From contig CM000207.1 in NCBI GenBank assembly GCA_000002445.1, positions 2,112,001 to 2,176,000 of the forward strand: a DNA stretch of 64,000 nt, in the 5' to 3' direction. Within the stretch, counting starts at the first letter, position 1. Every line of letters begins with the position of its first letter. The DNA is from Trypanosoma brucei (taxonomy: Eukaryota). Shown piece by piece: positions 449 to 28,841 of the stretch. The notes under the pieces are model-generated. The model made no database searches. It was not told the origin of the DNA and saw only the letters and a list, made by a program, of their open reading frames with translations. Position numbers and translations under genes: made by a program.

Positions 449-3400
449 TCATTGCTGCGGATTGGTTTGTTTACCCTTGAAGATCTTGTTCTCTTGTTCG
501 TACATTTCTGGTGCTATGGCATTGCGAGCGCCCCGCAACACTTCGCCGGTTCCCCGTAGCAACCCGTCCAACATGGCAGAGAAAGCGACAGGTAGGCAAA
601 TGCTGTTGCCTTGAGGTCCGAGGCAGTGAAGAGCAATATCATACGCTACGCGAAACCCTCGGGTTACTTCTATTAGTCCATTTTGAACCCCCTGCGTGGC
701 GTTCACCGGTTGCGAACCACGTGCCGCAGGATTCACACCACTAGCCGGCACGAGGTATGAAATGGAGTTACTTGTCACGTGCTGCAGCGAATGCGAGAGA
801 CCCGCAGCGCTATGCAGTGACTCAGTGGTTACCGTCAAAAGGAAGCTACGTAACGCGCAACATACAGCTGCGAAAAAGCGCTTGTTGCGACGGTGCTCGT
901 TTAGCGGGGCGAATAAAACCCCAGTGCTCGCCGAGGCAACGTTTGACGCCAGCTGTAGCGGTTGAACGGCGCAGCAAAGCAGAAAGAAGCCCCAAAACTT
1001 TCCAATTTCCCCACCCAAGCGCTGACAGAATAACCCCCACACTTGTTCAGCGGGGCATGAAGTGATCACCATCCGCGGCAGTTGTACTTGTGCGCGCTCC
1101 AGTGAGGGTAGCAAATAGTTACACAGCTCAAAGACATTTCCATGTAGGGCTTCAAAGGCGCTTCTCCCTTCAAATTGCACATAGAGTGTCATGGTGACAG
1201 GAGATAGTTCAATTTTTCTGAAAAATAGTGAGTCTCTACGTGCCTTCTTCCAAATTATATTCTCCTCGGTGACATTTTCGGGCACCTCAATGAATCTTGG
1301 AAGCAAATTCAGGGCTCGCCTGTGGAGAGCCACGGTAATAGGCTGGAGACGAACGTACAGCTCCTCCTCCGGTTTCCCCTCAATTACCGTTCCCGCATAT
1401 CCTGACAAAGTGGAAGGGAGAATTGTGGTCCATTTCATTGAAAATAAATCGCTATCACAGTCCCGAAGCGACTGAGGTAAGGAAGCCATTAGAAGTGTTT
1501 GCACAGTGCTTCCCTCAATGCGGTCAATGATCTCTCCGTCTTTCACTGTAATATGCAATTGCATGAAGTACGCCTTACCAGGGGCAAAACGATCAAATTG
1601 CGCGCGAATACCCCTCAGGTGAGCAATGACGTGCTCATCCTGTCGACGACCACCACCGAGGACGTCATCGCGGTGTTCATCACACCCAAAGTTGCGGTTC
1701 AGCTCATTGGAAGGCCCACGCTCTTCCGATGCAAGCTGATTAGCACACGACTCCGGAGCAGTATCTTCATCTACAGCAAAGCGTTGGAGGGTACGTAAGT
1801 ATTTGTCTGGAACGTCTGCGCGTATAAAGTCTTCGCCGCCGTAGAGATGCACAACGAGATTACAATCTCGCACAAAAATCTCCATTGACGCGGTGGAGAA
1901 GGGCGGCAACCTCCATGGTGCGTCATTTGGGCAATTCAAAGGGTCCCCAGATGTGGAGCTCCAACAACCGATGGGCAAACATCCTTCATAAGTAGCGTGA
2001 ACAGACAAAAAATTCTGAGACTTGCAGTGACTCGTTAGATCTACAGCTTCATCATTACGGGTATTCCAGACTCCCCACGATGATTTCCCAAAGGTTACGT
2101 CTCCAAGCATATCAAAATCAGAAAAAGACTGTGCGCCCTCGTCAACGCAGGGCGCATCGATCTTCTGGTGAAAAACTTCTGGCACCCCGTGACAAGCTGC
2201 GATGACGGAACTATTTAGCAGATGGCGCAAACGTGCACCATAATCACGTGCCACGACATGCACATCCACCTCAGACATCTCCCTAACCGTTTTCACCTGA
2301 GTAATGTGGGCGAAGTACTCCCCACTGCGCTGCACCAACAAGTACGGTGAAGGGAGAAAATCGACATCCAACCCCGTAAAAAAATTTGTAACAGTGGTTT
2401 GGAAGTGATATAGCGAGTCTTGGGCAAAGAACATGGCAACGTGAAGGTCGTGCACCGTGATAAAGAGTGGTTTCTCTGATGTCGCATTCAAGGAAACTGT
2501 TACTGCCGCTGCGCCTTTCGTTTCTGCGTCACCCCCTTTAGCACAACACTTACTCACGTGATCGGTGGACACATTAGACTGGTAAATGTCCAAAACCCTT
2601 ACAAACCCAAGGTTTGCGAGGTGCGCCCCTGTACCCCTCTTTCTGTCGCCGAAAAGTGAACTGTATCCCGTCTCATGGTCAATGACCAATAAACTCTTTG
2701 GAAAGTTGTCGTGAATAAATAATGATGCCGTGTCTCTACCGAGGTACAATTTTATAACGGTTGTTCCTGTCGGAAGACTTGGCACAATGATATCGATTTT
2801 GATGTGGGGAGAAAGGCCAGCGATCACGGAGTACCTTCCGAAAGGTCGATACTCCACTAGTGTGTCAAAAAAACTTACTCTTACTTTTGCACTTGTTGCC
2901 ATCGAAACACCATCATCGCTCTGTGCATCTATTACATCCGCGGAGCAGTCCTGCACTCCCGACACCTTTTGAGCCACAGCAGAGCTCAGCACCTCAGTGC
3001 TTGGGTCTGACAAATAATTAAAGATGACAAGAAACCAGTTATCCCCCTCCCACGCAGGCTGGTGGCCCATGAAAATGCGGTCCAAAAGCACAACTGCATC
3101 ATACGTTTCAGTGTGATCCTCGAAATTTAAAAACCGGCAAAGTGAAACTCCTCCCGCTCGCCGACCATACAATACTTCCGAGGTTCCATGAGCGTCTGCC
3201 GGAGTTTGGAGGCCGCCCACATCATTGTAATATGTGCCGTAACTTTGGAGAAGCGTCACAGTTCCGCCCCATTCAGGTGAAGAAGCATGCTCAGGAAGCC
3301 ACTGAAAGTCTACGCTGTCAGACCATACATCACACAAATTTTCTTGAAGGCAAAAACACAAAGTCTCGGCGTGAACAGTCACCTTCTTAACATCATCTGA

Positions 3401-6400
3401 CGTCTCGTGAAAGGAAAACACTTCAACGTTTGAAAACCTCAGTTGATACTGATGATACAGTAGTCGAGCATCAGTGACCTTCCGCATTTCGTAAGGTATG
3501 CAGCGCCACAAGGGTTCTCCTATGGCCACGCCTGCAGATGAAAGGCGCGGTGCCCATAACACCGTCGATACCTCGCCCACCAACAACCTGATACTAATGC
3601 TTGTGGCTTCGGAAGCACCGTCCGCGCCCACGCTCCACATGTCATCGCATTGTGAGGATAAATTATCTCTGCACGTATCACCCTTCATCCTTCTCTCCCC
3701 TCGGTGCAATTTTTTAAACATAATGCATAGCTTGTCAACAGTCTCCGCCACCTGGTTAAGGAAGAACGCGATCAGAAGAAACTCACATTTGTGGAGGGTA
3801 CCACTTACGTGATGAACGACTGCCCGAACAGTTATTAAACTTCTTTCTTCAGCTTTGACCTCTTCCTGGTGGTATTCCCTTGTGAAGGGTACATTAGGTG
3901 CGGATGCCGTACCAATATTTTTGTACGACGGGTGGTTCGGGTGACGCTGCACAGTAATGCATGGTTCCCCTTCTTCAGTGTCGAACGAACACTGAATCCC
4001 GCTTCTTTCGTTGTCCTTGTGGTCGTTCAGCGATAGTAGCACCTTGCTGAGTGAAATCTTCATGCCACCAGCGCTGTCCACAGAGAGTTTAACATTCTCC
4101 AGGTAACAACTTAGCGTAACTGGAAGATACGGCCCCTCAACATCGCCGAAACCCGCGCACAAGGCACTGGTGAAGAGATGCATTTCCTCTCCTTCTTCTC
4201 GCAGCCGACCCCACAGGCGACGGGTAAGAGGGCCACAGTAGTCAGGATCTGGTGCCTTTGATGTCATGAACAAAACCTCCACCATTGCGTTCTCTAGCTC
4301 CAACTCAAACGATCGAAGAACCAAATACGGCGCCACCACGCTTTTCTTAGGGATTGCGGAAGATGCTGTCTCAGAGGACGGAAGCGCCGGCGGAAACTCC
4401 ACAAGCGGGTCCTCGCACGCACTGCCTTTCGACCGGTCCACGTTGTCGCCTACATTCTCCTGCGTTGGAACAACCGAGTGGATCGACCCTGAGGAAGGGA
4501 ACACAGACGGTAACGCAGCGTCTTGCGATCTTTGATCCGCCACGGTGCTAGGAGAGGGGCCACTCACTATGCACTGGAGTCTCTTCCAATAACTGCCTAA
4601 CCTCTCTAGAGTATTCAGATTCACATTTACGATCAGATCTATCCCCGACAAAATAATAGCAACGCTCTCAAATACAGTTGCCGCTGCATCAATCCCCTCG
4701 TTAGGAAATTCACCGATATACCGAGTTGCCTCCGCAGGGGTTAGGGGGTGGGTTGTACCGATGATAATCCCCACACTGAACCGCCGCTTTGATTTCGATA
4801 CGGTATTCACTCTCGTGGTAAGCACAACTCGGCCATACTTGGTGTTGCCCACACCGTTCCAATCAGTCAGCTCAGTGCGGGCATCCTCACTGGTATCATC
4901 TTCGCACGGGAGCCGTTCATATGCCTCAATGGCAACTATCCCCACCGAGCAACGGCGAGCAAGGTCACTTCCAAACACACCGTGCAATGCATCCTCTGAA
5001 GAAAGAGAGTTGGTGATCGTCGGATATACCAACAACCTAATACCGCTTACGTACACTTCGTAGAACCCTGTACGGAACAGAAAACGGTGTAAAATGACCC
5101 TGTGTTCCCGGGATAGAAGCAACTCATCAACACTATTATCCTCAAAGTGTTCTACAAGGGCTTTCCATGCGCGCTTGACCCCCTCACGATCTTCGCAACG
5201 TAGAAATGTGGATGAAATGAGTTCACATGTAATCTTCAGCGACGTGGCGGATCGCCGTGTCGCGCAGACATCACCTTTGGCCGCTAAACTTGCTGGCTCT
5301 TCAGAAGGTTTTGGCGCACCCGCAATCGCACGAGCGATGTGAACCAGGTGTCCCAGCTGCGTTGGTGAAAGCACGAAGAGGAATACCTTTGTTGTTATTT
5401 GTGCCCTGCTGAATCCCTTCGGCACTCCAACCGCCATGTCAGCCTCACTGAGGTGGAATTCAACACTGTGTATGAACTCCTTTGGATGCCCGCTGCACAA
5501 AAATATATCGCCCGTATCAACAACTTCACCCCTTTCCACATCGGCATCAACCATCGTTTGGCGCCTACCATACGGATAGACAGCGGCGCGAAGACCAGAA
5601 AATCGAACAATTTTCTTCATTGTGCCTCCATTCGGATCCGAACCCGCGTCGTCAATCTCGAACCCTCCTTCAAATGACACCAGTAACTCTACAGTGCCAT
5701 ATGGAGGCTCTCGCCCGACGACTATTTCCTGTCCGCGAGGTGGTACCCGCAGGATGACACTAACATTGCTCATGCGGCCACTCACACTGTAAGCCAACTT
5801 CTTTATGCTGCATACGAGGGCCCTTACACAGTCGTCAAGCGTGTGTTGTGAGGACAATTGCCCAACAGAATGAGACCCCCACTCCTCCACAACGTAATTG
5901 GGGCCTCTCCCGTCTGCACCCCGCGAGAGAATTCCATCATTGTCAAGGGATGAGTACGCATCCTCCACCGTTTCTCGAGACAGCGGGATTTCCTCCGTCA
6001 CACCCTTGCTGTCGGCGCCCCCCTCACCAAAAGTAGGAGGATGATCACAGTAACGGGAGGACGTAGTGCACTCCATTGCACGAGGATTGACGTCGAAAAC
6101 GAGCTGAACACCGTCCACTTCGAACCGCCGCCTCCCGGTTGTGCCCACACTAAACGTAGCCTCCACAGTGTGCACATGCCCAGACGCTAAGCTCAATAAC
6201 CCACGCCGCGTAGAACCTGGCGCAACGGTATCTCCACCGCATTCTACACCCGCAGTACCTAGAACTGTCTCATTGATGTAAGTTTCGTTGAGCTGCAGGT
6301 TCGAGAGCTTAACAACAACTCCCCAACCACCCATTGTAAGGCCTACGCGTTCCAACTGATCTTCATTAATATCCTTCACGATGTTCTTAAGCGTTTGCTT

Positions 6401-6454
6401 CACAGCAGCCAACAACAACTGATCCTTCAACCACCTGAGCACAAATGGGGACAT
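449..6454 (-). CDS. Very large protein (2001 aa) with a chorein-N-like N-terminus. Putative bridge-like lipid-transfer protein (VPS13/ATG2-like).
   Basis: Uninterrupted 6 kb ORF. The N-terminus MSPFVLRWLKDQLLLAAVKQTLKNIVKDINEDQLERVGLTMGGWGVVVKLSNLQLNETYINE follows the chorein-N pattern (M-x3-hydrophobic ... DQL-x-hydrophobic ... W-G-x-V-x-L-x-NL-x-L). The rest of the protein is long and beta-rich. Product assignment is from pattern memory, not alignment. Confidence 0.55.
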   Translation of the reverse strand: MSPFVLRWLKDQLLLAAVKQTLKNIVKDINEDQLERVGLTMGGWGVVVKLSNLQLNETYINETVLGTAGVECGGDTVAPGSTRRGLLSLASGHVHTVEATFSVGTTGRRRFEVDGVQLVFDVNPRAMECTTSSRYCDHPPTFGEGGADSKGVTEEIPLSRETVEDAYSSLDNDGILSRGADGRGPNYVVEEWGSHSVGQLSSQHTLDDCVRALVCSIKKLAYSVSGRMSNVSVILRVPPRGQEIVVGREPPYGTVELLVSFEGGFEIDDAGSDPNGGTMKKIVRFSGLRAAVYPYGRRQTMVDADVERGEVVDTGDIFLCSGHPKEFIHSVEFHLSEADMAVGVPKGFSRAQITTKVFLFVLSPTQLGHLVHIARAIAGAPKPSEEPASLAAKGDVCATRRSATSLKITCELISSTFLRCEDREGVKRAWKALVEHFEDNSVDELLLSREHRVILHRFLFRTGFYEVYVSGIRLLVYPTITNSLSSEDALHGVFGSDLARRCSVGIVAIEAYERLPCEDDTSEDARTELTDWNGVGNTKYGRVVLTTRVNTVSKSKRRFSVGIIIGTTHPLTPAEATRYIGEFPNEGIDAAATVFESVAIILSGIDLIVNVNLNTLERLGSYWKRLQCIVSGPSPSTVADQRSQDAALPSVFPSSGSIHSVVPTQENVGDNVDRSKGSACEDPLVEFPPALPSSETASSAIPKKSVVAPYLVLRSFELELENAMVEVLFMTSKAPDPDYCGPLTRRLWGRLREEGEEMHLFTSALCAGFGDVEGPYLPVTLSCYLENVKLSVDSAGGMKISLSKVLLSLNDHKDNERSGIQCSFDTEEGEPCITVQRHPNHPSYKNIGTASAPNVPFTREYHQEEVKAEERSLITVRAVVHHVSGTLHKCEFLLIAFFLNQVAETVDKLCIMFKKLHRGERRMKGDTCRDNLSSQCDDMWSVGADGASEATSISIRLLVGEVSTVLWAPRLSSAGVAIGEPLWRCIPYEMRKVTDARLLYHQYQLRFSNVEVFSFHETSDDVKKVTVHAETLCFCLQENLCDVWSDSVDFQWLPEHASSPEWGGTVTLLQSYGTYYNDVGGLQTPADAHGTSEVLYGRRAGGVSLCRFLNFEDHTETYDAVVLLDRIFMGHQPAWEGDNWFLVIFNYLSDPSTEVLSSAVAQKVSGVQDCSADVIDAQSDDGVSMATSAKVRVSFFDTLVEYRPFGRYSVIAGLSPHIKIDIIVPSLPTGTTVIKLYLGRDTASLFIHDNFPKSLLVIDHETGYSSLFGDRKRGTGAHLANLGFVRVLDIYQSNVSTDHVSKCCAKGGDAETKGAAAVTVSLNATSEKPLFITVHDLHVAMFFAQDSLYHFQTTVTNFFTGLDVDFLPSPYLLVQRSGEYFAHITQVKTVREMSEVDVHVVARDYGARLRHLLNSSVIAACHGVPEVFHQKIDAPCVDEGAQSFSDFDMLGDVTFGKSSWGVWNTRNDEAVDLTSHCKSQNFLSVHATYEGCLPIGCWSSTSGDPLNCPNDAPWRLPPFSTASMEIFVRDCNLVVHLYGGEDFIRADVPDKYLRTLQRFAVDEDTAPESCANQLASEERGPSNELNRNFGCDEHRDDVLGGGRRQDEHVIAHLRGIRAQFDRFAPGKAYFMQLHITVKDGEIIDRIEGSTVQTLLMASLPQSLRDCDSDLFSMKWTTILPSTLSGYAGTVIEGKPEEELYVRLQPITVALHRRALNLLPRFIEVPENVTEENIIWKKARRDSLFFRKIELSPVTMTLYVQFEGRSAFEALHGNVFELCNYLLPSLERAQVQLPRMVITSCPAEQVWGLFCQRLGGEIGKFWGFFLLCCAVQPLQLASNVASASTGVLFAPLNEHRRNKRFFAAVCCALRSFLLTVTTESLHSAAGLSHSLQHVTSNSISYLVPASGVNPAARGSQPVNATQGVQNGLIEVTRGFRVAYDIALHCLGPQGNSICLPVAFSAMLDGLLRGTGEVLRGARNAIAPEMYEQENKIFKGKQTNPQQ

Positions 6455-6985
6455 CAGTGACGCGAAGCAAATGTACAGAACAAAAGGAAAAGAATCGCCT
6501 CGCTTTCCCCAGACCCACAGATGAAAACTTCAACTATACTACCTTTGTTCTTCAGTCGACCCCCCACCCCTGACCTTTCGAAAAGTAAGGAGAGAAAAGA
6601 GTCTATAACAACACACTTTCATTCTCTGCCCCACGAACTTCCTGACCCAACCGAACTACGTCCCACACAACCTTGCGCGCTCACTAAACGAACAACAGGA
6701 AGCGATGTATTACCCTCCAGCAGGGTGTGTGTTAGTCCCCTTCCCACACTAACTGAGGAGGACAAGCTCCGATATCCAAACAAATGAAGACGGATTCTTT
6801 TTTTATAAATAAATTAAAAAACCTCCCGCGCACACACTTCATCTGCAGGGAAGGGGTATTCACAGCCACATCATCGCCCCACGGACATAAACATCGCTGA
6901 GGCGCTGGTATGCACAGGAAAGTGTTCCCGTTTCCATTCAGAGACGTTCGTGGGGAGGACAGTCGGAAACCCAAATGTCCTTTTG

Positions 6986-8107
6986 TTACTTCAGGTGTGG
7001 TAAGCGCTCAACGGCACTGGGATGAGGAGGCAACTGCGATTGCGCATTAATCGAACGGGTGCTGCACGTAACAACAAAGTGACTCACACGGACTCGTAAA
7101 GCCGACTTGCCAGCAGCAGTGTCCCCTCCCGAGATTAAAAGCGCACGCAAACAACCCTCCAATGCTTCGAGTGGATCCACAATGCAACGACGGCGGACGA
7201 CATTTAACGCATCGTCACCACTACCACCCTCGCATATCAGTGTTTCCTCCATGTCACTACATTGAGGAGCCCTTGAGTTTCCCCTAGATCCTGTGGAGAG
7301 TAACTGGTATTCTGGGAGACATCTGTACGCCGCCGCCACCTGAGCGGGTGTTGCACTGTACTCAGAACAAAACCACCGTCTCCGTACGGAGGGGAAGGGA
7401 AAATACATGTCCGCGTGACCAACGTCTAAGCTACTGCTCACATCCATTACCCGTTGCAAAGCCTCCCGCATGTTATCTGCCTCCCCTCGTTCAATTGCGG
7501 CACGCGCAGAGTCCACAAGATCCTTCAGAAAATCGTCAGCATCGTTTCGTGCCGCCTCTGGTGCCACAACTCGGATCACGGGAGAATACCCCATTACGGC
7601 CACTACACCATGTGGTCGGAGGCACCGATGCGCCAGGGACAAATGCCACGGCGCATCGTGAAGCATTTCTTCCCCAAACACATTCCCCGCAAAAATCACT
7701 GCATCAAGAGATGATGGTGCCACAGTCTCTAAAGGGGAAACAAAATGAGGGAGTCGACCGCCTTTGACCTGCAGGGCCTCACCACTACCTTCAGCTCTGC
7801 AGCATGGACTGCTTGTTGCAACGCCAATGCGTCTCCGCAATGCGGCCACACGGCAACCCGGGAAGTGCTCACCTGAACGACGGGTTATTGCCCCAAGCCG
7901 CTCGTCATCCATGAACGAAGGACATATTACCAAAGAATTTCGATAAAAAGGCACCGAGTCCGTCAAGATTGCCAACCAGCATTCAGCAGGTTCAGGGAAA
8001 AAACCCTTGCACCCACGGTGATAACCGTGCAGTGCGGGGCTGAATGCAGACACAAAACCGCGACATAACTCCCCCACTTTGCTCCCGTAAGGTATAGACC
8101 GCATCAC
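6986..8107 (-). CDS. Hypothetical conserved protein (373 aa), possibly with a methyltransferase-like fold.
   Basis: Long minus-strand ORF in the same orientation as its neighbours. The segment LDAVIFAGNVFGEE...WHLSLAHRCLRPHGVVAV resembles post-I/II motifs of class I SAM methyltransferases, but no clear GxGxG motif I was seen. Confidence 0.45.
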   Translation of the reverse strand: MMRSIPYGSKVGELCRGFVSAFSPALHGYHRGCKGFFPEPAECWLAILTDSVPFYRNSLVICPSFMDDERLGAITRRSGEHFPGCRVAALRRRIGVATSSPCCRAEGSGEALQVKGGRLPHFVSPLETVAPSSLDAVIFAGNVFGEEMLHDAPWHLSLAHRCLRPHGVVAVMGYSPVIRVVAPEAARNDADDFLKDLVDSARAAIERGEADNMREALQRVMDVSSSLDVGHADMYFPFPSVRRRWFCSEYSATPAQVAAAYRCLPEYQLLSTGSRGNSRAPQCSDMEETLICEGGSGDDALNVVRRRCIVDPLEALEGCLRALLISGGDTAAGKSALRVRVSHFVVTCSTRSINAQSQLPPHPSAVERLPHLK

Positions 8108-13431: not shown

Positions 13432-14313
13432 CTACGGATAAGGTGCCAGGAAGCGAACCTCAGGCACGGACTGTTGCGGTGATTTCTGCCAGCTGCTGTG
13501 GGCATGAAGCCCTTCATTCATATCGTTACGGCGAATAGTATCTCTCCATATTCCGATGCGGAAATATTTAGTATTCTGTGAGAAGCGCCAAGGAGTTCCG
13601 TTTCGTGGATTGTGACCGACAAATTCAGTCAGTTTGGGGCCGCGCTGCAGCTCATCGATAAACATATACCGCATTCGTGTCCAAGGACGCGGTACTAGTG
13701 GCGACTCGGCAAGATCACACTTCATGCCATAACGTCCGAGTGTCGCACGTAGAGACTCGTTGCGACGGACATTTGGATTTTCGGGCAACTTCCCGTAAAG
13801 CAAACCCCCCGGCCGCAGCTCACTGAACAGTGTGCATTGCTCGATTGCGTCCATGCCGAGCCGCAGATCCAACTCACCATCTCTTGTCCTCATGTCCCAA
13901 GTACCCTCCGGCACAAAATACGGGTTCAGCACAACAGGTACACTTTGACCGGTGATGTATAAAACGACGGGGCCAGCTATAATCGCATTTGCTTCATTCC
14001 GCCCAACAGATGGCGACCCTGATGCAAAGCCGCCCTTCTGAGGCCTCGCCTCCTTTTTACCTCCATTGGAGGTTGCGTTGGGTAAAGACACATGCACAGT
14101 CTCCTCCACAAAATAGCCTGTTGGTAGTCTAAGTGAGGGACTACGAAGTAATTCTAACCAACTAAGCGGCAAAACGGTCCGTTTGAATGTTGGATCCACA
14201 ATCGCGTCCTCAACACGAATCGACCGCCTATGGTCACGGGAAAGCACTTTATACTCCACAAACATATCCCCACCACTCATCCTGAATTGCCGTAAAAAGG
14301 TACGGCACAGCAT
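13432..14313 (-). CDS. Hypothetical conserved protein (293 aa).
   Basis: Long minus-strand ORF in the cluster orientation with non-repetitive composition. No motif recognised. Confidence 0.5.
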   Translation of the reverse strand: MLCRTFLRQFRMSGGDMFVEYKVLSRDHRRSIRVEDAIVDPTFKRTVLPLSWLELLRSPSLRLPTGYFVEETVHVSLPNATSNGGKKEARPQKGGFASGSPSVGRNEANAIIAGPVVLYITGQSVPVVLNPYFVPEGTWDMRTRDGELDLRLGMDAIEQCTLFSELRPGGLLYGKLPENPNVRRNESLRATLGRYGMKCDLAESPLVPRPWTRMRYMFIDELQRGPKLTEFVGHNPRNGTPWRFSQNTKYFRIGIWRDTIRRNDMNEGLHAHSSWQKSPQQSVPEVRFLAPYP

Positions 14314-16537: not shown

Positions 16538-17557
16538 TCATTGTCTAGGAATAAGGACATTACCAAACGGGTCGACGAATCCTGCCACTTTTGCGTTGGT
16601 GTGTTCCATCATGTTTGCCATGCTGCGCAATACCTCATGCTTCTTCACCAATTGTAGGTTCTCACCATCCACCATCACCTGCGCACGGGGTTTGTGCACG
16701 GATAAATAATAGCTAACGCACTGAGATTGTTCGGTAACCTTCCAACCGTTTTGTTCTTCTTCACCAACCGCGACAGTTACTTGAAGGCCGTGACCCTCTG
16801 AAGCTAGTTCAAGAAGCCGGATTCCAACTGCTCTGGGAACAGTAATGAGCGCTTCATCATCACATACACGACGCAATGACAACATTTCCCCCATCGTCAG
16901 ATGCCGAATCGCAAGAGCAACATCGAAGAAGAGGTCGGCAACCGACCGCAGCACCACCGCAGAGCCAAACCTTGCAACGGAGGGATCCGACCCACCCACC
17001 TCCTCCTCGCCCCTCGGTCCCTCCTTCCGCACAATTTCTCCAATGCCTCCAAGAAAGTTTCCATATAAATGTGTTGGTATGCCAACCAGTCGAACCTCCA
17101 TCTCATGGACGGCGGCTTCAACATTGGGAGGCGGTCGCTTTCGACCTCCTGCTGAGTCAAAGTTGTCATCACGTATGCCGCACCGCAGTTGTTCATACGC
17201 CTTGCGTCCCTCCTTCTCACACTCACGCTGTCCAGAAACGGCAACCGAGCCAACGACGTTGAGCATAACAACAGTGTCTCCCACTAAAAAGTCCACACGC
17301 CGAGCTGCATCAGCGGCGGCTTTTGTTTCGTAGTCAATTAGCGCTGCGCCTGAAGATACAAAGGGGTTTTCCGCAGCTCTTTTCCGCTTTGCTGGCCCCT
17401 TCCTAATACCAGGAGCCGCAGCCCCGTTGTCGCCAGGTCGCGTGATGAGCAACGCATTAACCACCGCGTCACCACTTGAATGGGCACGCACATAGTCGTA
17501 AAACTCCTCTGCAGTGATGTGCAGAGGAATATTGGTGGCGAGCAGGCGGCAGTGCAT
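16538..17557 (-). CDS. Hypothetical conserved protein (339 aa).
   Basis: Long minus-strand ORF with non-repetitive composition. No motif recognised. The plus-strand ORFs inside it are antisense artefacts. Confidence 0.5.
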   Translation of the reverse strand: MHCRLLATNIPLHITAEEFYDYVRAHSSGDAVVNALLITRPGDNGAAAPGIRKGPAKRKRAAENPFVSSGAALIDYETKAAADAARRVDFLVGDTVVMLNVVGSVAVSGQRECEKEGRKAYEQLRCGIRDDNFDSAGGRKRPPPNVEAAVHEMEVRLVGIPTHLYGNFLGGIGEIVRKEGPRGEEEVGGSDPSVARFGSAVVLRSVADLFFDVALAIRHLTMGEMLSLRRVCDDEALITVPRAVGIRLLELASEGHGLQVTVAVGEEEQNGWKVTEQSQCVSYYLSVHKPRAQVMVDGENLQLVKKHEVLRSMANMMEHTNAKVAGFVDPFGNVLIPRQ

Positions 17558-18916
17558 ACTTTACTAAAGAACAGTAGGTTATCACAAACTGACTGCAATG
17601 GGTGATTTCTGAGGAGGGAGGAAAGGAAAAAAAAATGCTAAAAAATGATTCCTCAACGTAACATGAGAAGGTAGAGACAGTACCGCAGCGACAAAAGGAA
17701 CAAAAAAACAATAATGACAGCGATAACGACGATAATAACGATAATAACGATGCCAACGACTGGACCAGCAGACACCCGCGTTAGTAAAAGGAGAAACATA
17801 TCACATGTATCCCAGCCAATGCGATATCATAACACTCTTACAAACGAAAAGGAGTAGTACAGAAGAGATATACAAAAGACTTAAGGATGTAAAAACGGGG
17901 AGAGGGGCGGGTTCAGAACGACGCCACATTAAGTGGTACAAATGGCGAGTTCAAGTGCAATTTATGAGTGAAGAGAAGCACCCACGACCGCGGCAGTTGG
18001 CACAAAAGCAGCCGTTAGATACGGAGGAAAACCGCCACGGCGTCGGTCACCACCTGAATTCTCTCATGCCCTTTTCCTTCCTTGCGTCCCTCAAATCCTC
18101 CCTAAATCAACGCCTCTCGGAATCCTCGATGGTTCATGTGATGAATGCGGTTCAAGCGAGATAACTTACAACAGTGCTTATATCACTGACAATAATCCGA
18201 CTATCCCATAACACCTTTCACGCATAATGTCACACATGTCACTAGGTGGCACGCACTGAAAAGAGCCCGTCAAGAAAAGACGATCCCTAATCCCTCACGT
18301 AATTCCTTTTCGCCCAGTCCCTGAAAGAGAAGAGGCGGAGAAAAAAAAAAGAAAAAAGAAAATAAATGCGCCATAACACTAACTAACTTGCGAGTGAGTG
18401 AGTGAGTGGACAAGAAAGATACAACATAGCCATATCAATCACTTAACAATCCCAACAAAATTATAAACACACACACACACACACCTTCACGTGCACGTGG
18501 GCAAATGCATTACCACCTATCCTTTCCTTCCCATCATAACAGTCATCATCCCCCTCCACCATTCCGTCCACTTCTCAACGCCTTTTTCCCCTTTTTCCCC
18601 ATTTTATTCTTTTTTTTTTGCATTTTTCCTGCTTTTTTTTTTTTTGCGTTCTCGCACCAGTAGGTGAGCACCGACAAAGAGAAGAAAGAGAGTAATATAT
18701 GTATATATGTAATTTCCCGCACACAAAAAACAAAGAAGCAAAAAGAAAATGGATGCAAGACGTTAGAAATCCCTACACCACTAACTTGGATTTTTGCATC
18801 TTTTCCGTTGACTACTGACATTGTCTCCACTCAAAGAATAAGAGGGGTCACATCTCTATTCTCATCTCTCTTCTAAGTACACATCAAAAAAGGTACAAAA
18901 AGAAAAAGCAAAGACA

Positions 18917-18937
18917 AACACACACACACACACACAC
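18917..18937. repeat. (CA)n microsatellite.
   Basis: acacacacacacacacacaca. Other (CA)n/(GT)n tracts occur at 18467-18484, 9781-9796, 10573-10590, 11356-11371, 21470-21482, 33818-33833 and 42525-42548. The last is compound with (TA)n and (GA)n. Confidence 0.9.
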
Positions 18938-19065
18938 AAAGGAAAATAATTTAAAAAAAACAAAAATTAAAAAATCAAACGAAGCCGTAATCACCCTTCT
19001 TTTGATACAAACAATCAGGCGTCAAACAACATTTGTTTCTCTCTTCCCACACGAGCCAGATGTAT

Positions 19066-19092
19066 AAATATATATATATATATATATATACA
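19066..19092. repeat. (AT)n microsatellite.
   Basis: atatatatatatatatatatatata run. Similar (TA)n tracts occur at 20101-20150, 23353-23372, 33846-33863, 35611-35650 and 37859-37880. Confidence 0.9.
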
Positions 19093-22076
19093 TCTATACG
19101 TCCGTACGCGTATGTATGTGTGTGTGTGTTTGTGTGTTCGCATGCTTCACCTTCATCTCCCCCACAATTATGTACTTCGATCTCTCATTATAAACAAAAA
19201 AGACAAACAAAAACAAAATAGACCGAACGGACAGACAGACATGTAGTAGTAGTAGTAGGAAAAACGAAAAAAAAAACAAAAGGAAGAAAATAAGAAAAGG
19301 GCCAGACAGAGAGATAACAGCGGTGACAGCAAGACACCCACGAATAAAGCACGCACACATACACACACACACATATTTGATTATTTAAAGAAAAAAAAAC
19401 ATCAAGTGAGCCAATTTTTATTCCCCCTTCTGCTCTCCTCAGAAGCGCAGCACGAAAAAAAAAAAGGAATAAAAGTTGGCTACACATTCATCGGTACTTT
19501 TTTTTTCTTTTTCTCATTATCCCGCTTAGTTCAACTGTCAGGGCTCACGTCACCACTCACTCATATTGAAAGAAAGATAAGGGAAGGTTAGAGTATGAAA
19601 GCAAAAGGAGGAAAGGAAAGGAAAGGAAGGGAAAGAAAAGGAGGCGAGAGATCGAAAAATTAAAAAGAAAACGAAAGGAAAGGTAAAGTGAAGGTGAAGG
19701 TGAAAGGTAAAGAAGTAGTGACGAACAAAAAAAATTCAAAAATCAAGTGAGGGAGTCTATGCATGTGTACGACAAAAAGAAGTTGTGTTGACAAACTACA
19801 CACACAAATGCAGTCATTTACACAAGCATGTGTACGTGCACATTCACCTCTCGAAAGACCCTCCACGCGCCCAGACACCGAACAGCGTGTAACTTGTGAA
19901 TAAATATAGAAAGAAAAAAAGAACCAAAAAAAAAAAAGCTTGCATCTTGTGGAAGCTGACTACCATTTTGTTATAAGCGTTTGCATGGAGGGAGGAGGAA
20001 GGAAAAAGATTTGAGGCTAAGGATTAAATAACATCACACATGTCCAAATAGAAGTGGTGCCGTAACCTCTTTCCACTCAATTCCTTTGGTACGCGAACAC
20101 ATACGTATATATAATATATATATAATATATATAAATATATATATTGCCTTCGCCACCCTGAAACAACAACAAATGAATCACACCGCGCATAAAACCCACC
20201 TTATCCTCCTCCTTCCCTTCCCTTCCCTTCCCTCCCTCCGACTCCTCACCTATTTATTTCTTAATTATTATCATCTCTCCTTCTCCAATATTACACAAAC
20301 GCCGCAAAGTAAAGTAACGCATTTTGGGTCCCTTCATCCTCCTCCTCCTTCTCCTTCTTTTCCAACCTAAACTCATCCCTACCTCCCGTTAATCACTCTT
20401 CGCTTGTTTCCTTTCTTTTTTTTTAAAAAAAAAAAGAGAGAAAAGAAAACAAATGTGTTCGACTCTTTGATTACCTGGATTCTTTCTTCAGATTTTGGCT
20501 GAGGTTGGTGTCTTCATTTTTCCTTTTTCTTTTTTTCTTTTTTTTTTTCGTTGTAAAAAGTAACCTCCACACACGCAGACAACTTTCCCCTTTTCTCGCT
20601 CAACACTAAATGTAATAAATTTCATCCTCCCCCCCCCCTCTTCTTCTTCCATAAGTCGTTGCGTACAAACAAAACAAAACGGAAGGAGGAAAGGAGGGGA
20701 AAAAAAAACAAACAAATCGTGCAGCCCTCACCACCCTCGCAAACTTATTCAGACGAAACGACTACTTGTGGACAAAATTATGAAAAAAATCTCAACCTCA
20801 CAATAACAAAGAAACACACAAAAAAAAAATGTGAGAAAGGGAGAAGATAGAGAAAGGGAGAAAGAGAAGTGACTAAACACTTCAAAACATACGTACAAGC
20901 GCATAAGCATATACACATATCCTCCTCCTTCCTTTCAGCTTCCTTTTACCGCTCTCTCACTTACCTTTCTCCATCAACTCCCCTTTGAGCATTTCCAACG
21001 CGTCCCCTACAACTCAAATTTCAAGTATTGACCCCTCCCTCAAAGAACAGAAGAAAAAAAAAAAAGAAGAACAAAAAAAAAAAATGGAGTCACTCTATCT
21101 GCCTCGCCTCACAATAAATCGGTTCACACCAGACCTCACTTTCATCCCTTATCATTCACTATGCGATAAAGCTTTAAAGTCGCACCTAATACAGAACTGT
21201 CTCCTTTTGCTTCATTGTTGCTTTTCAATTCCCCATACCCGCTCTTTCCTACTCAACCTTCCTTCAACACCCCCATCTCCCCAGTCCGAACCGTCTACAT
21301 TTACCTATCGATTTATTTTTTAAGGGTCCCTCATTCTTTTTTTTTTCTTTCCTCCTCCTCCTCCTCCTCTCCCCTTCTCCATTCACCATTCCATCCCCAT
21401 CACATACACGCATACGCATACGCATACGTTTCTTTTTCTTTTTCCTTTTTGTTTCCCCCCCCCCCAACACACACACACACGCACCAACTTCCCATATTCA
21501 CGTATCCATCTCCTTTTCCTCTTCCTCGTGTGTAAAAGTTATATTTCCCCTCACGTTATGCAATGGTGCGTGTGAGAGGGAAAGCAAGGGGGAAAGGGAG
21601 AAAAAGAAAGAAAAAAAAAAAAGAAAACCACCGCAGAGAGTCACGTGCCGCTGCGCGCGGTTTGGTCCGGTGTGGTTGCCGGAAATTCCTCGCAACCTTC
21701 TGAACCCAGATTTGCTTTCGCCCCTCTTTTTTTTTCTTTTCTTTTATCTTATCTTATTTTTGCGCTGTGCTGTGCGTGCTTTGTTTTGTTTTGTTTTTTT
21801 TCCTTTTCCCCACTTCCACACCCTTCCCTTCACACCCCCCTCCCTTCTCTCTCTCTTTCTCACACACACACAAACACACGCGAACACACGCACACAAACA
21901 CGCGCAACCCCACGCATCATTTTAAGCTTCTGCGTCTTCATTTACTCCCCCCCCCCTAACATTAATTATATATCGCACCCTCACTTTTATACCCGCCCAC
22001 ATTCGCAAGTCACGTGTTCCCCCCCCCCTGATCTCAAGCACCCCCGTCGTCTTTTATCGTTCTTTTCTTCACGATT

Positions 22077-22979
22077 TCATGAAGTGGATTTATTGTCAAG
22101 ACGGACATTCATTGCCCTGTTCGCCATCTCAATTCCATCGAACTCCTCTATGGCAACACGGGTTTCCTCCTCTGTCTTCATTACAACAATACCCATACCA
22201 CGGCTCTTTCCATTACGTCCCATGATAATCTCAGCGCGTTCCACTTCGCCAACCTGCTGGAACGTTTCTCGCAGCGCTACACTGGTGCAGTCAAACGGAA
22301 GATTTGATACAAACAATTTGCGACCGACTTCGTTCATTTGTTTGCTGCGTGGCTTTGGCACTACCTCATTCACATCGTTGAAGACACCCGAATTCCCATC
22401 ATCGGGTAAGGCATATCCACCGCGATTCACGTAACCACCACCACGACCGAAGTTTCCCGCGCTATTATTGTATGATGTCATATTAGCGTTCGCATTCCCG
22501 AATCCCCGCATTCGCTGCTGATGCTGCTGCTGCTGCTGTTGTTGTTGCTGTTGTTGTTGTTGCTGATGTGGCGGATGATGTTGTTGTTGATGATGCTGCG
22601 GTTGTTGCAACTGCCCCTGCCGAACGTACGGAGGCATCATTTCCCGCTGCACCAACTGTGGCCGTGGCCCGTCATCAAAAAGACGGACGATAAGTCGTCT
22701 CCCTTCGAAGTCGGTTTCATCAAACATGCGAATGGCTTGCAGGGCGTCTTCCCTAGTGGCCATCGTCACCAACGCGGAGCCCTTCGGACGGCCCGTCTTG
22801 TCGGCGATAAGATCCGTGTAACGAACCTTTCCAGCACTTCTGAAGTGATCCTTCACATGCTGCCATGGGGTTTGAAAGGGGATGTTGCCCACAAAAAGAA
22901 TGTTGCCGTGGTTCTGGCGACGGTCACCATCTTCAGGATCACGCTGGGGACATGATGCAGATGAATGCTCGTCGAACAT
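22077..22979 (-). CDS. DRBD2: RNA-binding protein with two RRM domains separated by a Gln/His-rich linker. Probably double RNA-binding domain protein DRBD2.
   Basis: RRM1 (ILFVGNIPFQTPWQHVKDHFRSAGKV...KGSALVTMATREDALQAI) and RRM2 (KLFVSNLPFDCTSVALRETFQQVGEV...RGMGIVVMKTEEETRVAIE) contain RNP-2/RNP-1 motifs, with a polyQ linker between them. The start was chosen at MFDEH (300 aa), because the upstream ORF extension is translated from a poly-T/G tract. The symbol comes from my memory of the T. brucei chr9 gene order and is less certain than the domain call. Confidence 0.75.
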   Translation of the reverse strand: MFDEHSSASCPQRDPEDGDRRQNHGNILFVGNIPFQTPWQHVKDHFRSAGKVRYTDLIADKTGRPKGSALVTMATREDALQAIRMFDETDFEGRRLIVRLFDDGPRPQLVQREMMPPYVRQGQLQQPQHHQQQHHPPHQQQQQQQQQQQQQQHQQRMRGFGNANANMTSYNNSAGNFGRGGGYVNRGGYALPDDGNSGVFNDVNEVVPKPRSKQMNEVGRKLFVSNLPFDCTSVALRETFQQVGEVERAEIIMGRNGKSRGMGIVVMKTEEETRVAIEEFDGIEMANRAMNVRLDNKSTS

Positions 22980-24038
22980 ATTTCCTCCTTGCATCAGGTA
23001 CACCCTTTTTGCCTTGATAATTTTTTTTGGGGGGGTATTTGTTTTTATTTCTTCTTGACTTTTTTTTTTTATTATTCCCACTTTTACCTTCCCTTCCCCT
23101 TATTACTTATGTGTTTTACCCCCTTTTTTTTTTTTCGGCGCTCTTATTATTGTTAATACTCGCCTTTTTTTTGTTTTTTCCCCTTTATGGTCCTTTCCCT
23201 TCCCTGTAGATCCTTCTTTTTTTTTTTTCTTACGTTCTTTCCACTCTCCTTTAATCTGTTGTACTCCGCCCGTGTGTATGTGAAATGAATGAGATATTGT
23301 CGAAAACGCACACGTTGCAGCTCCTCCAGGAAATGGAGCGAAAAAGAAAGATATATATATATATATATATATGAGTTAACCTCGAAGGGTCTACACGCAG
23401 AGTGAACGAAAAGAAAATTATAATTCTATTAACAATAGCAACGGCGAGAACCGTTATTACTAACAAGTTCTACGTAGAAACAACGAGTCTTTTTTTAAAA
23501 AAAAAAACAGCCTGAAACATACAGAGTGACTGCGACCCCAAACGCTTCAAGTTATATGAAGTAATAAAGGAAATAAACAAGGGAGCATATTGTGAACCAA
23601 AATGGACGACTTATTCACGCATACAAATATATATTTATATATTTACGTACATTTGTATGAGACAACTTATTATGTTTGACAACCGAGTGTATGGGAAAGA
23701 TCACGCGATTTGTGGTTCCCGCCTGCAGAGCCTTGGAAGATAATAGTACCACGACAGTTTTTCATATTCCTCGTCAAGCGCGCTGAGCTATATAGATCTA
23801 GATATATATGAGTTGCACCCGAATTCAACTAACGGGACACATAAAAACAGCTAGAATCCAAAGGGGGAAAAAAAATTGAAAAAAATTGAAAAAAAAAGAG
23901 GTTTAGAGGAAAGCAAACAGAGACGTGAAGAAAGAAAATCAACTGGGCCATACTAAAGCGGTGAAACCCACGATCTCGAACAGAAAGATGGAAAACAAAG
24001 AGAAGAAACAAAACCCTCCACAGACTCGATGAGCGAAA

Positions 24039-27560: not shown

Positions 27561-28841
27561 TCACAAAAGTTTTACTGCAATAAGTCGCCTGGGTAGGTCT
27601 ACCTTTTTGGTGCGTAACTTTGGAACTCGTGGAGTGTCCTTTTGTAATTCTATTTGCATATTCGCCCACGCGCAAAATTCCTCCGCCGCTTTCATGTCCT
27701 TTGCGTATGCAGAGAGGCAACAGTTACTGCTCTTCTCACCATACTCGCCATCGCAAAGGTAATATCCACCTTGCACCAACCGCTCCTCCTCAACAGCCAT
27801 CCGCAGCACCACCTGCGCTCCATCTGTCCATGTTTTACCAATGAGCAGCGAGGGATAGTAAATTAAATAGTCCAGTACGAAAGTAGGGAAGAGATCACGG
27901 TACAAATGCGTTGTAATGATACCGGGGTGACAACAGGCAACGGAGACCCGGGGTAGCGGTTGTGACGGTTGAGCTCCCTCGGTGGTGGGAAGGTAAAGGG
28001 AAGAAACACGCTGTGCAAGGATATTTGTCCACCAAATCATGCACAGTTTGGAAAGCCCATAATAACCCACAAAGTTCCATAGAGTAAAATCCCGTACCCC
28101 GGCATCCTCACTGAGCGGTGCCCTGCTGTGGAGCTCTTTCAACATCTCCAAAGGACCCTGTTGTGGGGCGACGCCCAAAAACGTGTGGCAGCTGGATGCA
28201 ATATTAACAATCCGCGACGACGCCCCAGTCCGCAGCGCTGTCTCATCCAGTAGCGGAAGCAACAACTCTGTGAGAAGCATCGGCCCAACCACGTTAGTCG
28301 CAATCATCTCCTCCATCCCTGTACCATCACAGCGGTGAAGACGCCGGCGCAACACCCCAGCCGCATTCACCAAAAGTGACAGAGATAATTGATCTTTCTG
28401 TCCAGTCACAACCTCGGCAAAATCTCGCACGCTGCTCAGATCCGACAGGTCCAATACACCAACAACGATTGCACAGCCAGCAGGATTCCGCACCATAATT
28501 TTCTTCCGTGCCTCAAGCAGCCGTTCTTCACTGCGCCCCGCCATGACCACACGCCAACCATGTTCAACAAGTTGCTGCGTAACGGCAAAACCAATGCCGG
28601 AAGATGCCCCCGTGACGAGGGCTACACGAGAGTTTTTACCCGTATTAGCAGGCCACCGACAACTGCGGCCCTTCGCCTTTCTGCGGCAAATCAGACAACT
28701 GCTAATCATGAGAAGTGTAGTTGAGACGCCCGACATATTGACCCGCCAAAACCAACCAAAGAGGTGGGTGAACGCCCAAATTAAAAGAAACTGACACATT
28801 GTTATTGCTGCCTGCATCTCAGATGACTCGACATGCAACAT
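27561..28841 (-). CDS. Short-chain dehydrogenase/reductase (classical SDR, retinol-dehydrogenase/WWOX-like) with an N-terminal transmembrane anchor.
   Basis: Rossmann motif RVALVTGASSGIGF, NAAG motif, and active-site YGLSKL (YxxxK). A hydrophobic N-terminal segment is present. The exact start Met is uncertain among M1, M9 and M36. Confidence 0.75.
   Translation of the reverse strand: MLHVESSEMQAAITMCQFLLIWAFTHLFGWFWRVNMSGVSTTLLMISSCLICRRKAKGRSCRWPANTGKNSRVALVTGASSGIGFAVTQQLVEHGWRVVMAGRSEERLLEARKKIMVRNPAGCAIVVGVLDLSDLSSVRDFAEVVTGQKDQLSLSLLVNAAGVLRRRLHRCDGTGMEEMIATNVVGPMLLTELLLPLLDETALRTGASSRIVNIASSCHTFLGVAPQQGPLEMLKELHSRAPLSEDAGVRDFTLWNFVGYYGLSKLCMIWWTNILAQRVSSLYLPTTEGAQPSQPLPRVSVACCHPGIITTHLYRDLFPTFVLDYLIYYPSLLIGKTWTDGAQVVLRMAVEEERLVQGGYYLCDGEYGEKSSNCCLSAYAKDMKAAEEFCAWANMQIELQKDTPRVPKLRTKKVDLPRRLIAVKLL

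What the first reader, a model, noticed from the sequence alone, without database searches (positions are those of the whole stretch)
449..6454. 2001-aa chorein-N-like protein, a candidate bridge-like lipid-transfer protein
The extreme N-terminus follows the chorein-N pattern shared by VPS13, ATG2 and other BLTP families. The remaining roughly 1900 residues are long and low in obvious motifs, as expected for a repeating beta-groove. At 2001 aa it is ATG2- or SHIP164-sized rather than VPS13-sized. Kinetoplastid bridge-like lipid transfer proteins are poorly characterised.
Basis: inference. Interest (0 to 1): 0.5.

Follow-up and report, generated by a model that had tools for sequence, protein, structure and literature searches.

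The report
Trypanosoma brucei ATG2 lipid-transfer protein
[quoted passage not shown] UniProt already names it ATG2 automatically, although trypanosome autophagy reviews still list ATG2 as "not found".

Summary
The ORF is real: 449..6454, minus strand, 2001 aa. It is 100% identical to T. brucei TREU927 XP_827583.1 / UniProt Q38D67.

Evidence:
- Pfam's only hit is ATG2 (E 1.4e-12, 46.7 bits, just under the 50-bit cut-off).
- An exhaustive HMMER search found 76 relatives. Of 23 full-length ones sampled, 21 are Pfam ATG2, and the nearest kinetoplastid scores 142 bits.
- Profile-profile alignment to non-euglenozoan ATG2 is end-to-end: Tb 5-1994, probability 100%, E 1e-44.
- A kinetoplastid-only profile hits one PDB sequence of 177,635, human ATG2A (E 1.7e-26), at both termini.
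- The chorein-N claim holds by hhalign (97%, E 1e-10; reversed control E 0.57).

The structure models are low-confidence, and the C-terminal half failed.

A LIR-like motif (SFSDFDML) followed by a Y/HFS-like motif (NFLS) lies upstream of HLYGGEDF, in the same order as the GABARAP and WIPI4 sites of human ATG2A.

Verdict: ordinary. It is database-annotated but uncharacterised, and corrects a gap in the reviews. Interest 0.3.

The parts
449..6454 (-). Complete coding sequence (2001 aa plus stop) of the T. brucei ATG2 orthologue
   Evidence: The ORF is listed and translated. It is 100% identical to XP_827583.1 / EAN77253.1 / Q38D67. Full-length collinear hhalign to non-euglenozoan ATG2 gives probability 100%, E 1.1e-44, Tb 5-1994.
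6080..6442 (-). Chorein-N-like N-terminal domain (aa 5-125): one helix followed by long beta-strands. Predicted to be the lipid-entry tip at the ER end.
6197..6259 (-). Insertion of about 20 residues (aa 66-86, GTAGVECGGDTVAPGSTRRGL) inside the chorein-N domain. It is present in the Trypanosoma sequences and absent from other ATG2 proteins.
   Evidence: It appears as a gap in the template in the hhalign alignments. AF2 pLDDT is below 50 for residues 68-85.
5792..6085 (-). Predicted disordered loop (aa 124-221) between the first beta-strands of the groove
   Evidence: AF2 pLDDT is 21-45 with no secondary structure. Conservation is poor in alignments A1 and A5.
2105..2128 (-). LIR-like motif SFSDFDML (aa 1443-1450; core F1447-x-x-L1450 preceded by acidic and Ser residues). 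Candidate ATG8-binding site.
   Evidence: F1447 is invariant in 8 kinetoplastid sequences within an otherwise poorly conserved stretch. F/Y-x-x-I/L/V/M preceded by acidic residues recurs at the same relative position in diplonemids. Human ATG2A has its functional LIR, SDEFCIL, at 1362-1365, upstream of the WIPI4 motif (10.1101/624627). Binding was not tested.
2003..2020 (-). SQNFLS (aa 1479-1484): candidate counterpart of the Y/HFS WIPI4/Atg18-binding motif
   Evidence: It aligns with THYMS, NHYLS, RYIS and MHF in other kinetoplastids. It lies where diplonemids have DDYF[ST] and fungal-type ATG2 have E[ND][HY][FY]. The human YFS motif is at 1395-1397, about 30 aa after the LIR. This is an inference from order and position only.
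1826..1849 (-). HLYGGEDF (aa 1536-1543): conserved motif that opens the ATG2 C-terminal (CAD-type) region
   Evidence: L1537, G1540, D1542 and F1543 are invariant in kinetoplastids. The motif aligns to human ATG2A HLYGGRDFG at about 1425-1433. It is found in most relatives.
1184..1648 (-). Best Pfam ATG2 (PF13329) stretch: aa 1603-1757, profile positions 1291-1434 of 1697
   Evidence: One search gives E 1.4e-12 and 46.7 bits for the whole protein, against a cut-off of 50. One search gives 35.8 bits for the C-terminal 500 aa taken alone.
476..1051 (-). C-terminal helical region (aa 1802-1993): ATG_C-like, a candidate amphipathic membrane- or lipid-droplet-binding end
   Evidence: The kinetoplastid HMM aligns through to ATG2A residue 1936 of 1938. 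This includes the block LLCGVQP...APLxxYRRNK, which matches LLGGVGP...LPIEQYRKDG. AF2 predicts five long helices here, but with pLDDT below 50. Levine 2022 describes ATG_C as paired helices (PMC7613979).

Best explanation
The gene encodes the Trypanosoma brucei orthologue of ATG2. ATG2 belongs to the repeating-beta-groove (bridge-like) lipid-transfer protein superfamily.

By homology, the protein folds into a long rod whose inside is a hydrophobic groove. The N-terminal chorein-N tip takes phospholipids from the ER. The lipids slide along the groove. The C-terminal end (the HLYGGEDF/CAD region plus the ATG_C helices) docks on the growing phagophore, so that bulk lipid flow expands the autophagosome membrane.

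Docking is predicted to use a LIR-like motif (F1447-x-x-L1450) for ATG8 and a nearby NFLS motif for the PROPPIN ATG18, with ATG9 acting as scramblase partner.

Shown here: homology to ATG2 over the whole length, a chorein-N fold at the N-terminus, and conservation of the motifs.

Inferred from the family: lipid transfer, the ER-phagophore location, partner binding and a role in autophagy.
For: Identity and conservation:
- 100% identical to T. brucei Q38D67, which UniRef names 'Autophagy-related protein 2'.
- Orthologues at 41-45% identity in other Trypanosoma species.

Family assignment:
- The only Pfam hit is ATG2 PF13329, E 1.4e-12. T. cruzi-group and T. conorhini orthologues hit a second, collinear part of the same model.
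- Exhaustive HMMER search of 1.84 billion proteins found 76 relatives, nearly all matching at the C-terminal end of 1800-2900 aa proteins.
- Of 23 full-length relatives, 21 are Pfam ATG2 and none belongs to any other family apart from VPS13_N. The nearest kinetoplastid, P0009, scores 142 bits against a cut-off of 50.
- Relatives are independently named ATG2 in Leptomonas, Diplonema papillatum and Papus (K17906).
- Full-length hhalign to non-euglenozoan ATG2: probability 100%, E 1.1e-44, 1584 collinear columns.
- A kinetoplastid-only HMM hits only human ATG2A in the PDB, even at E<=10: E 1.7e-26, matching residues 11-106 and 1411-1936.

Chorein-N domain.

Exclusion of BLTP1/BLTP2: no N-terminal TM helix.

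Motifs: LIR-like and Y/HFS-like motifs lie in the same order as in human ATG2A.

Partners: ATG8, ATG9 and ATG18 homologues are reported in trypanosomatids (PMC3901119).

Family mechanism: lipid transfer by ATG2 is described in PMC6625793 and PMC6548141 (abstracts).
Against: - The T. brucei protein itself scores below Pfam's gathering threshold (46.7 against 50 bits).
- Alone, or as a Trypanosoma-only profile, it finds no solved structure.
- Pfam VPS13_N does not hit its N-terminus directly.
- The structure models are weak: mean pLDDT is 44.5 for the N half and 31.2 for the C half. A continuous hydrophobic groove was therefore not demonstrated, and the C half gave no fold match.
- No experimental data on this protein were found. 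Reviews state that ATG2 was not found in trypanosomatids.
- Motif function is inferred only from position and conservation.
Confidence: 0.85

Rival explanations
1. It is an ATG2-family lipid bridge by descent, but in trypanosomes its main job is not macroautophagy. It might instead supply lipid to lipid droplets, glycosomes or other organelles, or act mainly in glycosome turnover during differentiation.
For: The sequence is strongly diverged: it is sub-threshold in Pfam and has a Trypanosoma-specific insert in the chorein-N domain. The putative WIPI motif is degenerate in Trypanosoma, with NFLS in place of H/Y-F-S. Mammalian ATG2A also localises to lipid droplets independently of its LIR and WIPI4 sites (10.1101/624627). 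The ATG_C region is reported to target lipid droplets (PMC7613979).
Against: The C-terminal 500 residues, which hold the autophagy-specific partner region, are the best conserved part. The LIR-like aromatic residue is invariant across kinetoplastids. Trypanosomatids carry out ATG8-dependent autophagy and have ATG8, ATG9 and ATG18. Only one ATG2-like protein per species appeared among the relatives.
Confidence: 0.1
2. It belongs to another chorein-N family, either a short VPS13-like protein or BLTP3/SHIP164, and resembles ATG2 only through the shared superfamily fold.
Against: Chorein-N is shared by all these families, so the Vps13-N match does not discriminate between them. Sequence evidence outside the N-terminus is ATG2-specific: Pfam ATG2 alone, 21 of 23 relatives being ATG2, a single collinear alignment over the full length of ATG2, and human ATG2A as the only PDB hit although the PDB holds Vps13, BLTP1/LPD-3 and TamB chains, none of which the profile matched even at E<=10. 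No VAB, PH or other VPS13 accessory-domain hits were found.
Confidence: 0.03
3. It is a non-functional or mis-annotated ORF, such as a decaying gene or a chance reading frame.
For: GenBank annotates it only as 'hypothetical protein, conserved'. The T. b. gambiense copy is flagged LOW QUALITY and carries a 22-aa insertion.
Against: A 2001-codon open frame cannot arise by chance. Full-length orthologues are kept across Trypanosoma, other kinetoplastids, diplonemids and euglenids, with invariant motifs. The gene lies in the same orientation as all other genes of its transcription unit.
Confidence: 0.01

Closest known systems
ATG2 (human ATG2A/ATG2B, yeast Atg2; Pfam PF13329; KEGG K17906)
   Same: - Length: 2001 aa against 1938 aa.
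- Chorein-N start.
- Collinear homology over the whole length.
- HLYGG(E/R)DF motif and the C-terminal ATG_C-type block.
- A LIR-like motif followed by a Y/HFS-like motif upstream of the CAD region, as in human ATG2A.
   Different: - Very low identity: about 17% over the hhalign alignment.
- Below the Pfam gathering score.
- Insertion of about 20 aa inside chorein-N in the Trypanosoma sequences.
- Wider spacing: the LIR-like motif is about 90 aa from the anchor, against about 63 aa in human ATG2A.
- NFLS in place of H/Y-F-S in Trypanosoma.
- No biochemical or cell-biological data.
VPS13 family (yeast Vps13, human VPS13A-D)
   Different: VPS13 proteins are much longer and carry VAB repeats and a C-terminal PH domain (PMC7613979). 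None of these is detected here. No VPS13 chain is hit by the kinetoplastid profile.
BLTP3 / SHIP164 (UHRF1BP1L)
   Same: A chorein-N start without a transmembrane anchor, and a bridge-like lipid-transfer protein of moderate size.
   Different: No sequence signal for this family in the Pfam or PDB searches. The C-terminal half is ATG2-specific.
BLTP1 (Tweek/Csf1/LPD-3) and BLTP2 (Hobbit)
   Different: Those families start with ER-anchoring transmembrane helices and are larger (PMC7613979). Here there is no N-terminal hydrophobic segment, and the strongest 19-residue window is at aa 591. T. brucei has a separate 4203-aa Tweek homologue (PMC7613979).
Bacterial AsmA/TamB family
   Different: These are bacterial periplasmic proteins. 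The relationship is only a distant one at superfamily level, with no sequence match.

Membership tests
ATG2 | N-terminal chorein-N domain (helix plus beta-scoop) at the extreme N-terminus | tested here: met
ATG2 | Sequence membership by Pfam PF13329 at the curated gathering score | tested here: inconclusive
   T. brucei scores 46.7 bits against a cut-off of 50, although E is 1.4e-12. T. cruzi-group and T. conorhini orthologues score 28.8 and 24.7 bits. The kinetoplastid relative P0009 passes at 142 bits, and 21 of 23 relatives match. The collection's precomputed Pfam field lists PF13329.14 for this protein.
ATG2 | Collinear homology to bona fide ATG2 over the whole length, not to other bridge-like families | tested here: met
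   hhalign gives probability 100%, E 1.1e-44, Tb 5-1994 against 14-1966 of 1970. The only PDB sequence hit at E<=10 is human ATG2A, at E 1.7e-26.
ATG2 | C-terminal CAD-type region and ATG_C helical region | tested here: met
   HLYGGEDF aligns to ATG2A HLYGGRDFG, and the alignment runs to ATG2A residue 1936. The Pfam stretch covers aa 1603-1757. Predicted helices span 1802-1993, at low confidence.
ATG2 | Continuous hydrophobic beta-groove (repeating beta-groove rod, about 20 nm) | tested here: inconclusive
   The N half is predicted as long strands and matches LPD-3 over 488-1012 positions, but mean pLDDT is 44.5. The C-half model failed at pLDDT 31.2 and gave no fold match. Groove hydrophobicity was not measured.
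ATG2 | PROPPIN (Atg18/WIPI4) binding site (Y/HFS motif) and, in metazoa, an adjacent LIR for ATG8/GABARAP | tested here: inconclusive
   Conserved SFSDFDML (F1447 invariant) and NFLS/HY[ML]S motifs lie in the right order upstream of the CAD anchor, as do the human motifs. Binding was not tested.
ATG2 | Lipid-transfer activity, ER-phagophore localisation and a requirement for autophagosome formation | not testable with these tools
   No experimental paper on a trypanosomatid ATG2 was found.
VPS13 | VAB repeats, C-terminal PH domain and a much greater length than ATG2 | tested here: not met
   The protein is 2001 aa. No Pfam hit other than ATG2 appears at E<=1. No VPS13 chain is hit by the kinetoplastid profile.
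BLTP1 (Tweek) / BLTP2 (Hobbit) | N-terminal ER-anchoring transmembrane helix; APT1-type region for Hobbit | tested here: not met
   No hydrophobic segment at the N-terminus in the Kyte-Doolittle scan. No such Pfam hits.
BLTP3 / SHIP164 | Family-specific sequence beyond the chorein-N domain | tested here: not met
   No Pfam hit. The sampled relatives are ATG2.

The most novel reading that the evidence does not exclude
The acidic F-x-x-L/I motif about 90 residues upstream of HLYGGxDF may be a working ATG8-binding LIR. It is invariant in kinetoplastids and recurs in diplonemids. If it works, the ATG2-ATG8 contact known from animals and reported as not apparent in yeasts would be ancestral to eukaryotes rather than an animal invention. 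Trypanosomatids, long listed as lacking ATG2, would then run a canonical ATG2-ATG8-ATG18-ATG9 membrane-expansion module built on a highly diverged protein.
Probability: 0.35. Interest if true: 0.45.

Novelty: already known. Interest (0 to 1): 0.3.

Why it matters
Two reviews of trypanosomatid autophagy (2012, 2023) list ATG2 as not found, which leaves the lipid supply for autophagosome growth unexplained in these parasites. This gene fills that gap with a conventional answer.

The analysis also gives concrete handles for experiments: a chorein-N tip, the candidate ATG8-binding residues F1447 and L1450, a candidate ATG18-binding NFLS, and the HLYGGEDF/ATG_C end.

Autophagy contributes to trypanosomatid differentiation, so a defined ATG2 is a useful tool. 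It does not change what is known about the protein family. The family assignment is already present as an automatic UniProt name.

Tried and rejected
Sequence searches that gave nothing:
- phmmer of the single protein, and hmmsearch of a 4-sequence Trypanosoma profile, against PDB sequences found nothing relevant. Only the 8-sequence kinetoplastid profile worked.
- Pfam scans of the N-terminal 200 and 400 aa and the C-terminal 200 aa alone gave no hit.
- The word-indexed homologue search with alignment A3 returned nothing, not even the query's own family.
- With low-complexity-masked P0009 it returned only P0009 and P0081. Relatives outside Trypanosoma share at most 13 exact 5-mers with the query. 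This capped the AlphaFold alignments at 5-6 sequences.

Structure work that failed:
- The AF2 model of the C-terminal half failed (pLDDT 31.2), and its Foldseek search gave only noise (best E 0.18).
- The afdb50 library was not available.

Readings considered and rejected:
- Hobbit/Tweek: no N-terminal TM helix.
- VPS13/SHIP164: the C-terminal homology is ATG2-specific.
- Functional clustering with neighbours: the neighbours are unrelated housekeeping genes in one polycistronic unit.

Literature: searches for TbATG2, for 'autophagy-related protein 2' and for kinetoplastid ATG2 returned only ATG24 papers or statements of absence.
Full report
OBSERVATION. The window carries an uninterrupted 2001-codon ORF at 449..6454 on the minus strand, starting at the first start codon after the upstream stop. 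All 23 ORFs of 200 aa or more except one overlapping spurious frame lie on the minus strand. This is the pattern of a kinetoplastid polycistronic unit. The protein is 100% identical to T. brucei brucei TREU927 XP_827583.1 / EAN77253.1 / UniProt Q38D67 and to T. equiperdum SCU72730.1. GenBank calls it 'hypothetical protein, conserved'. UniRef carries the automatic name 'Autophagy-related protein 2'. A locus tag of a near-identical copy (DPX39_090082600) suggests chromosome 9; that is my reading of the tag and was not checked.

FAMILY ASSIGNMENT BY SEQUENCE. Pfam gives one hit, ATG2 (PF13329, now a 1697-position full-length model). It scores E 1.4e-12 and 46.7 bits against a gathering score of 50, with the best stretch at aa 1603-1757 matching profile positions 1291-1434. 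The T. cruzi-group and T. conorhini orthologues hit a different part of the same model (profile ~865-1005 at aa ~1120-1296). The two parts lie in the same order in the proteins and in the model.

The T. brucei protein alone, and a 4-sequence Trypanosoma profile, found no solved structure by sequence. I then ran the one exhaustive HMMER search, using a Trypanosoma profile of aa 1001-2001 against 1.84 billion representative proteins. It gave 76 hits at E<=1e-3 and 13 at E<=1e-30, nearly all matching at the C-terminal end of 1800-2900 aa proteins.

Of 23 full-length hits, 21 are Pfam ATG2 and 4 also match VPS13_N. No other family appears. The nearest relative outside Trypanosoma, P0009 (E 1.7e-147 to my profile), scores 142 bits on ATG2. 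Source names show that the relatives are Leptomonas pyrrhocoris ('Autophagy-related protein 2'), Diplonema papillatum (ATG2, KAJ9459865.1), Papus (K17906/ATG2), Entosiphon, Sulcionema and D. japonicum.

A profile of 7 kinetoplastid sequences aligns to a profile of 8 non-euglenozoan ATG2 proteins in one collinear alignment of 1584 columns. It covers Tb 5-1994 against 14-1966 of 1970, at probability 100% and E 1.1e-44.

The most discriminating result used an HMM built from 8 kinetoplastid sequences only. It hits exactly one of 177,635 distinct PDB sequences, even at E<=10. That sequence is human ATG2A (8kbx_B), at E 1.7e-26. The N-terminal stretch covers ATG2A 11-106, and the C-terminal stretch covers ATG2A 1411-1936 and includes HLYGG(R/E)DF. 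The PDB also holds Vps13, BLTP1/LPD-3 and TamB chains, which the fold searches found. None of them appeared.

THE CHOREIN-N CLAIM. Pfam does not recognise the N-terminus directly. I therefore took the N-termini of relatives that Pfam itself recognises as ATG2 positions 1-190 and/or VPS13_N and compared profiles. Seven kinetoplastids against five such N-termini gave 97.0% and E 1.1e-10 over Tb 9-123. Trypanosoma alone gave 75.5% and E 2.4e-5. The same templates reversed gave 0.1% and E 0.57. Against 13 ATG2 N-termini that included diplonemids, the result was 99.2% and E 1.8e-19. The alignments show an insertion of about 20 residues (aa 66-86) in the Trypanosoma sequences.

STRUCTURE. The tools only accept sequences returned by the word-indexed search as AlphaFold input, and that search reaches almost no relatives outside Trypanosoma. 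The alignments therefore had 6 and 5 sequences.

The N half (aa 1-1000) has mean pLDDT 44.5 and pTM 0.39. Residues 10-120, 220-300, 710-830 and 870-910 reach pLDDT 50-78. Its secondary structure is a helix at 3-22 followed by many 11-19-residue strands.

The C half failed at pLDDT 31.2. Only the trend is usable: strands followed by five long helices at aa 1802-1993. Its fold search is uninformative. A chorein-N fold with an extended beta-sheet is therefore supported for the N half. A continuous hydrophobic groove along the whole protein is not demonstrated.

PARTNER-BINDING MOTIFS (inference). Human ATG2A has a functional LIR (SDEFCIL, 1362-1365) about 30 residues before the WIPI4-binding Y/HFS motif (1395-1397). 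The same paper reports that the LIR is not apparent in S. cerevisiae or S. pombe (10.1101/624627).

In T. brucei, SFSDFDML (aa 1443-1450) lies about 90 residues before HLYGGEDF (1536-1543). F1447 is invariant in 8 kinetoplastids within a poorly conserved stretch, and 7 of the 8 keep F-x-x-I/L. Diplonemids have DSFQEI, DSFHEV, DSFELV, DTFDDM and DEYHNV at the same relative position.

Between the LIR-like motif and the anchor, diplonemids have DDYF[ST] and fungal-type ATG2 have E[ND][HY][FY]. Other kinetoplastids have HY[ML]S, RYIS or MHF, and Trypanosoma has NFLS (aa 1481-1484). The order LIR, then Y/HFS, then CAD is therefore kept. Whether these motifs bind ATG8 and ATG18 was not tested.

MECHANISM. 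By homology, the protein is a rod-shaped lipid bridge. The chorein-N end sits at the ER and the CAD/ATG_C end at the phagophore. Phospholipids flow along the groove to expand the autophagosome, as shown for ATG2A and yeast Atg2 (PMC6625793 and PMC6548141, abstracts). ATG8, ATG9 and ATG18 homologues are reported in trypanosomatids (PMC3901119). Homology and motif conservation are shown here. Activity, location and partners are inferred.

RIVALS.
- ATG2 by descent but used mainly outside macroautophagy, for example at lipid droplets or glycosomes: possible, about 0.1.
- Another chorein-N family (VPS13 or BLTP3): about 0.03. This is contradicted by the ATG2-specific C-terminal and full-length homology.
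- Hobbit or Tweek: excluded, because there is no N-terminal TM helix. Levine (2022) identified a separate 4203-aa T. brucei Tweek homologue.
- A non-functional ORF: effectively excluded.

WHAT IS KNOWN. The 2012 review states that ATG2 was not found in trypanosomatids (PMC3901119). [quoted passage not shown] I found no paper identifying or studying a trypanosomatid ATG2; every 'ATG2' hit was ATG24. The paper on Leishmania lipid-transfer proteins mentions RBG proteins only in general terms. However, UniRef's automatic name, the collection's precomputed Pfam field and KEGG-type labels on relatives already give the ATG2 assignment.

VERDICT. It can be refined to 'the ATG2 orthologue'. This is an ordinary, conserved eukaryotic gene in a diverged form. 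It is annotated automatically in databases, uncharacterised experimentally, and overlooked in the field's reviews. Novelty: already known at database level. Interest: 0.3. The most novel reading still open is an ancestral ATG2 LIR conserved in Euglenozoa, at probability about 0.35.

Noticed in passing
Related protein P0006 (T. b. gambiense DAL972, XP_011777047.1, 2023 aa); corresponds to window ~2030-2095 (-): The gambiense copy carries a 22-aa insertion (ESGIPVMMKLYAWRRNLCEIIV) between the LIR-like motif and NFLS, and NCBI flags it 'LOW QUALITY PROTEIN'. This looks like an assembly or annotation artefact rather than biology.
   Followed up: partly
window 27564-33056 (-): Two paralogous short-chain dehydrogenase/reductase ORFs (27564-28841 and 31668-33056) flank a class-3 lipase-like ORF (29239-31002). 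Three lipid-related genes sit side by side in the same transcription unit as ATG2. Gene order in kinetoplastids usually carries no functional meaning.
   Followed up: no
window 53853-58055 (-): A 1401-aa ORF has no Pfam match at E<=1e-3. Seven other ORFs of 211-655 aa also lack Pfam hits: 6989-8107, 13435-14313, 16541-17557, 36634-37689, 43111-44856, 45626-46258 and 49712-51676.
   Followed up: no
window 18000-24000: This region has low GC (0.39-0.44) and a strongly negative GC skew (-0.43 at 20001-22000). It contains only short low-complexity arrays of TA, AGGAA, poly-A/poly-T and CA-rich units, typical of intergenic or UTR sequence. A TGT/TGCTGT array at 22522-22607 lies inside the RRM-protein ORF and is probably the source of that ORF's weak TFIIA hit. 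The plus-strand ORF 21670-22434 overlaps that gene and is probably spurious.
   Followed up: partly
window ~6575-6602 (-), about 120-150 nt upstream of the ATG at 6454: A polypyrimidine tract (CTCTTTTCTCTCCTTACTTTTC) is followed by AG dinucleotides, and a second tract (TTCTTTTCCTTTTGTTCTGT) lies about 20-40 nt upstream of the ATG. These are plausible trans-splicing acceptor signals for this gene. Coordinates were estimated by hand.
   Followed up: no
window 34358-35104 (-): A longin-domain synaptobrevin (VAMP7-like R-SNARE) gene lies in the same unit. Other neighbours include the Rpn13 Pru domain, ribosomal protein L11, the Rieske Fe-S protein, a DnaJ protein, a NIF phosphatase and a methyltransferase. 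All are ordinary housekeeping genes.
   Followed up: no
tool behaviour: The word-indexed homologue search missed P0007 and P0008, which share 84 and 122 exact 5-mers with the query and were found by the exhaustive search. In alignment mode it returned nothing at all. 'No homologues' from that tool should not be read as absence for long, diverged proteins.
   Followed up: partly
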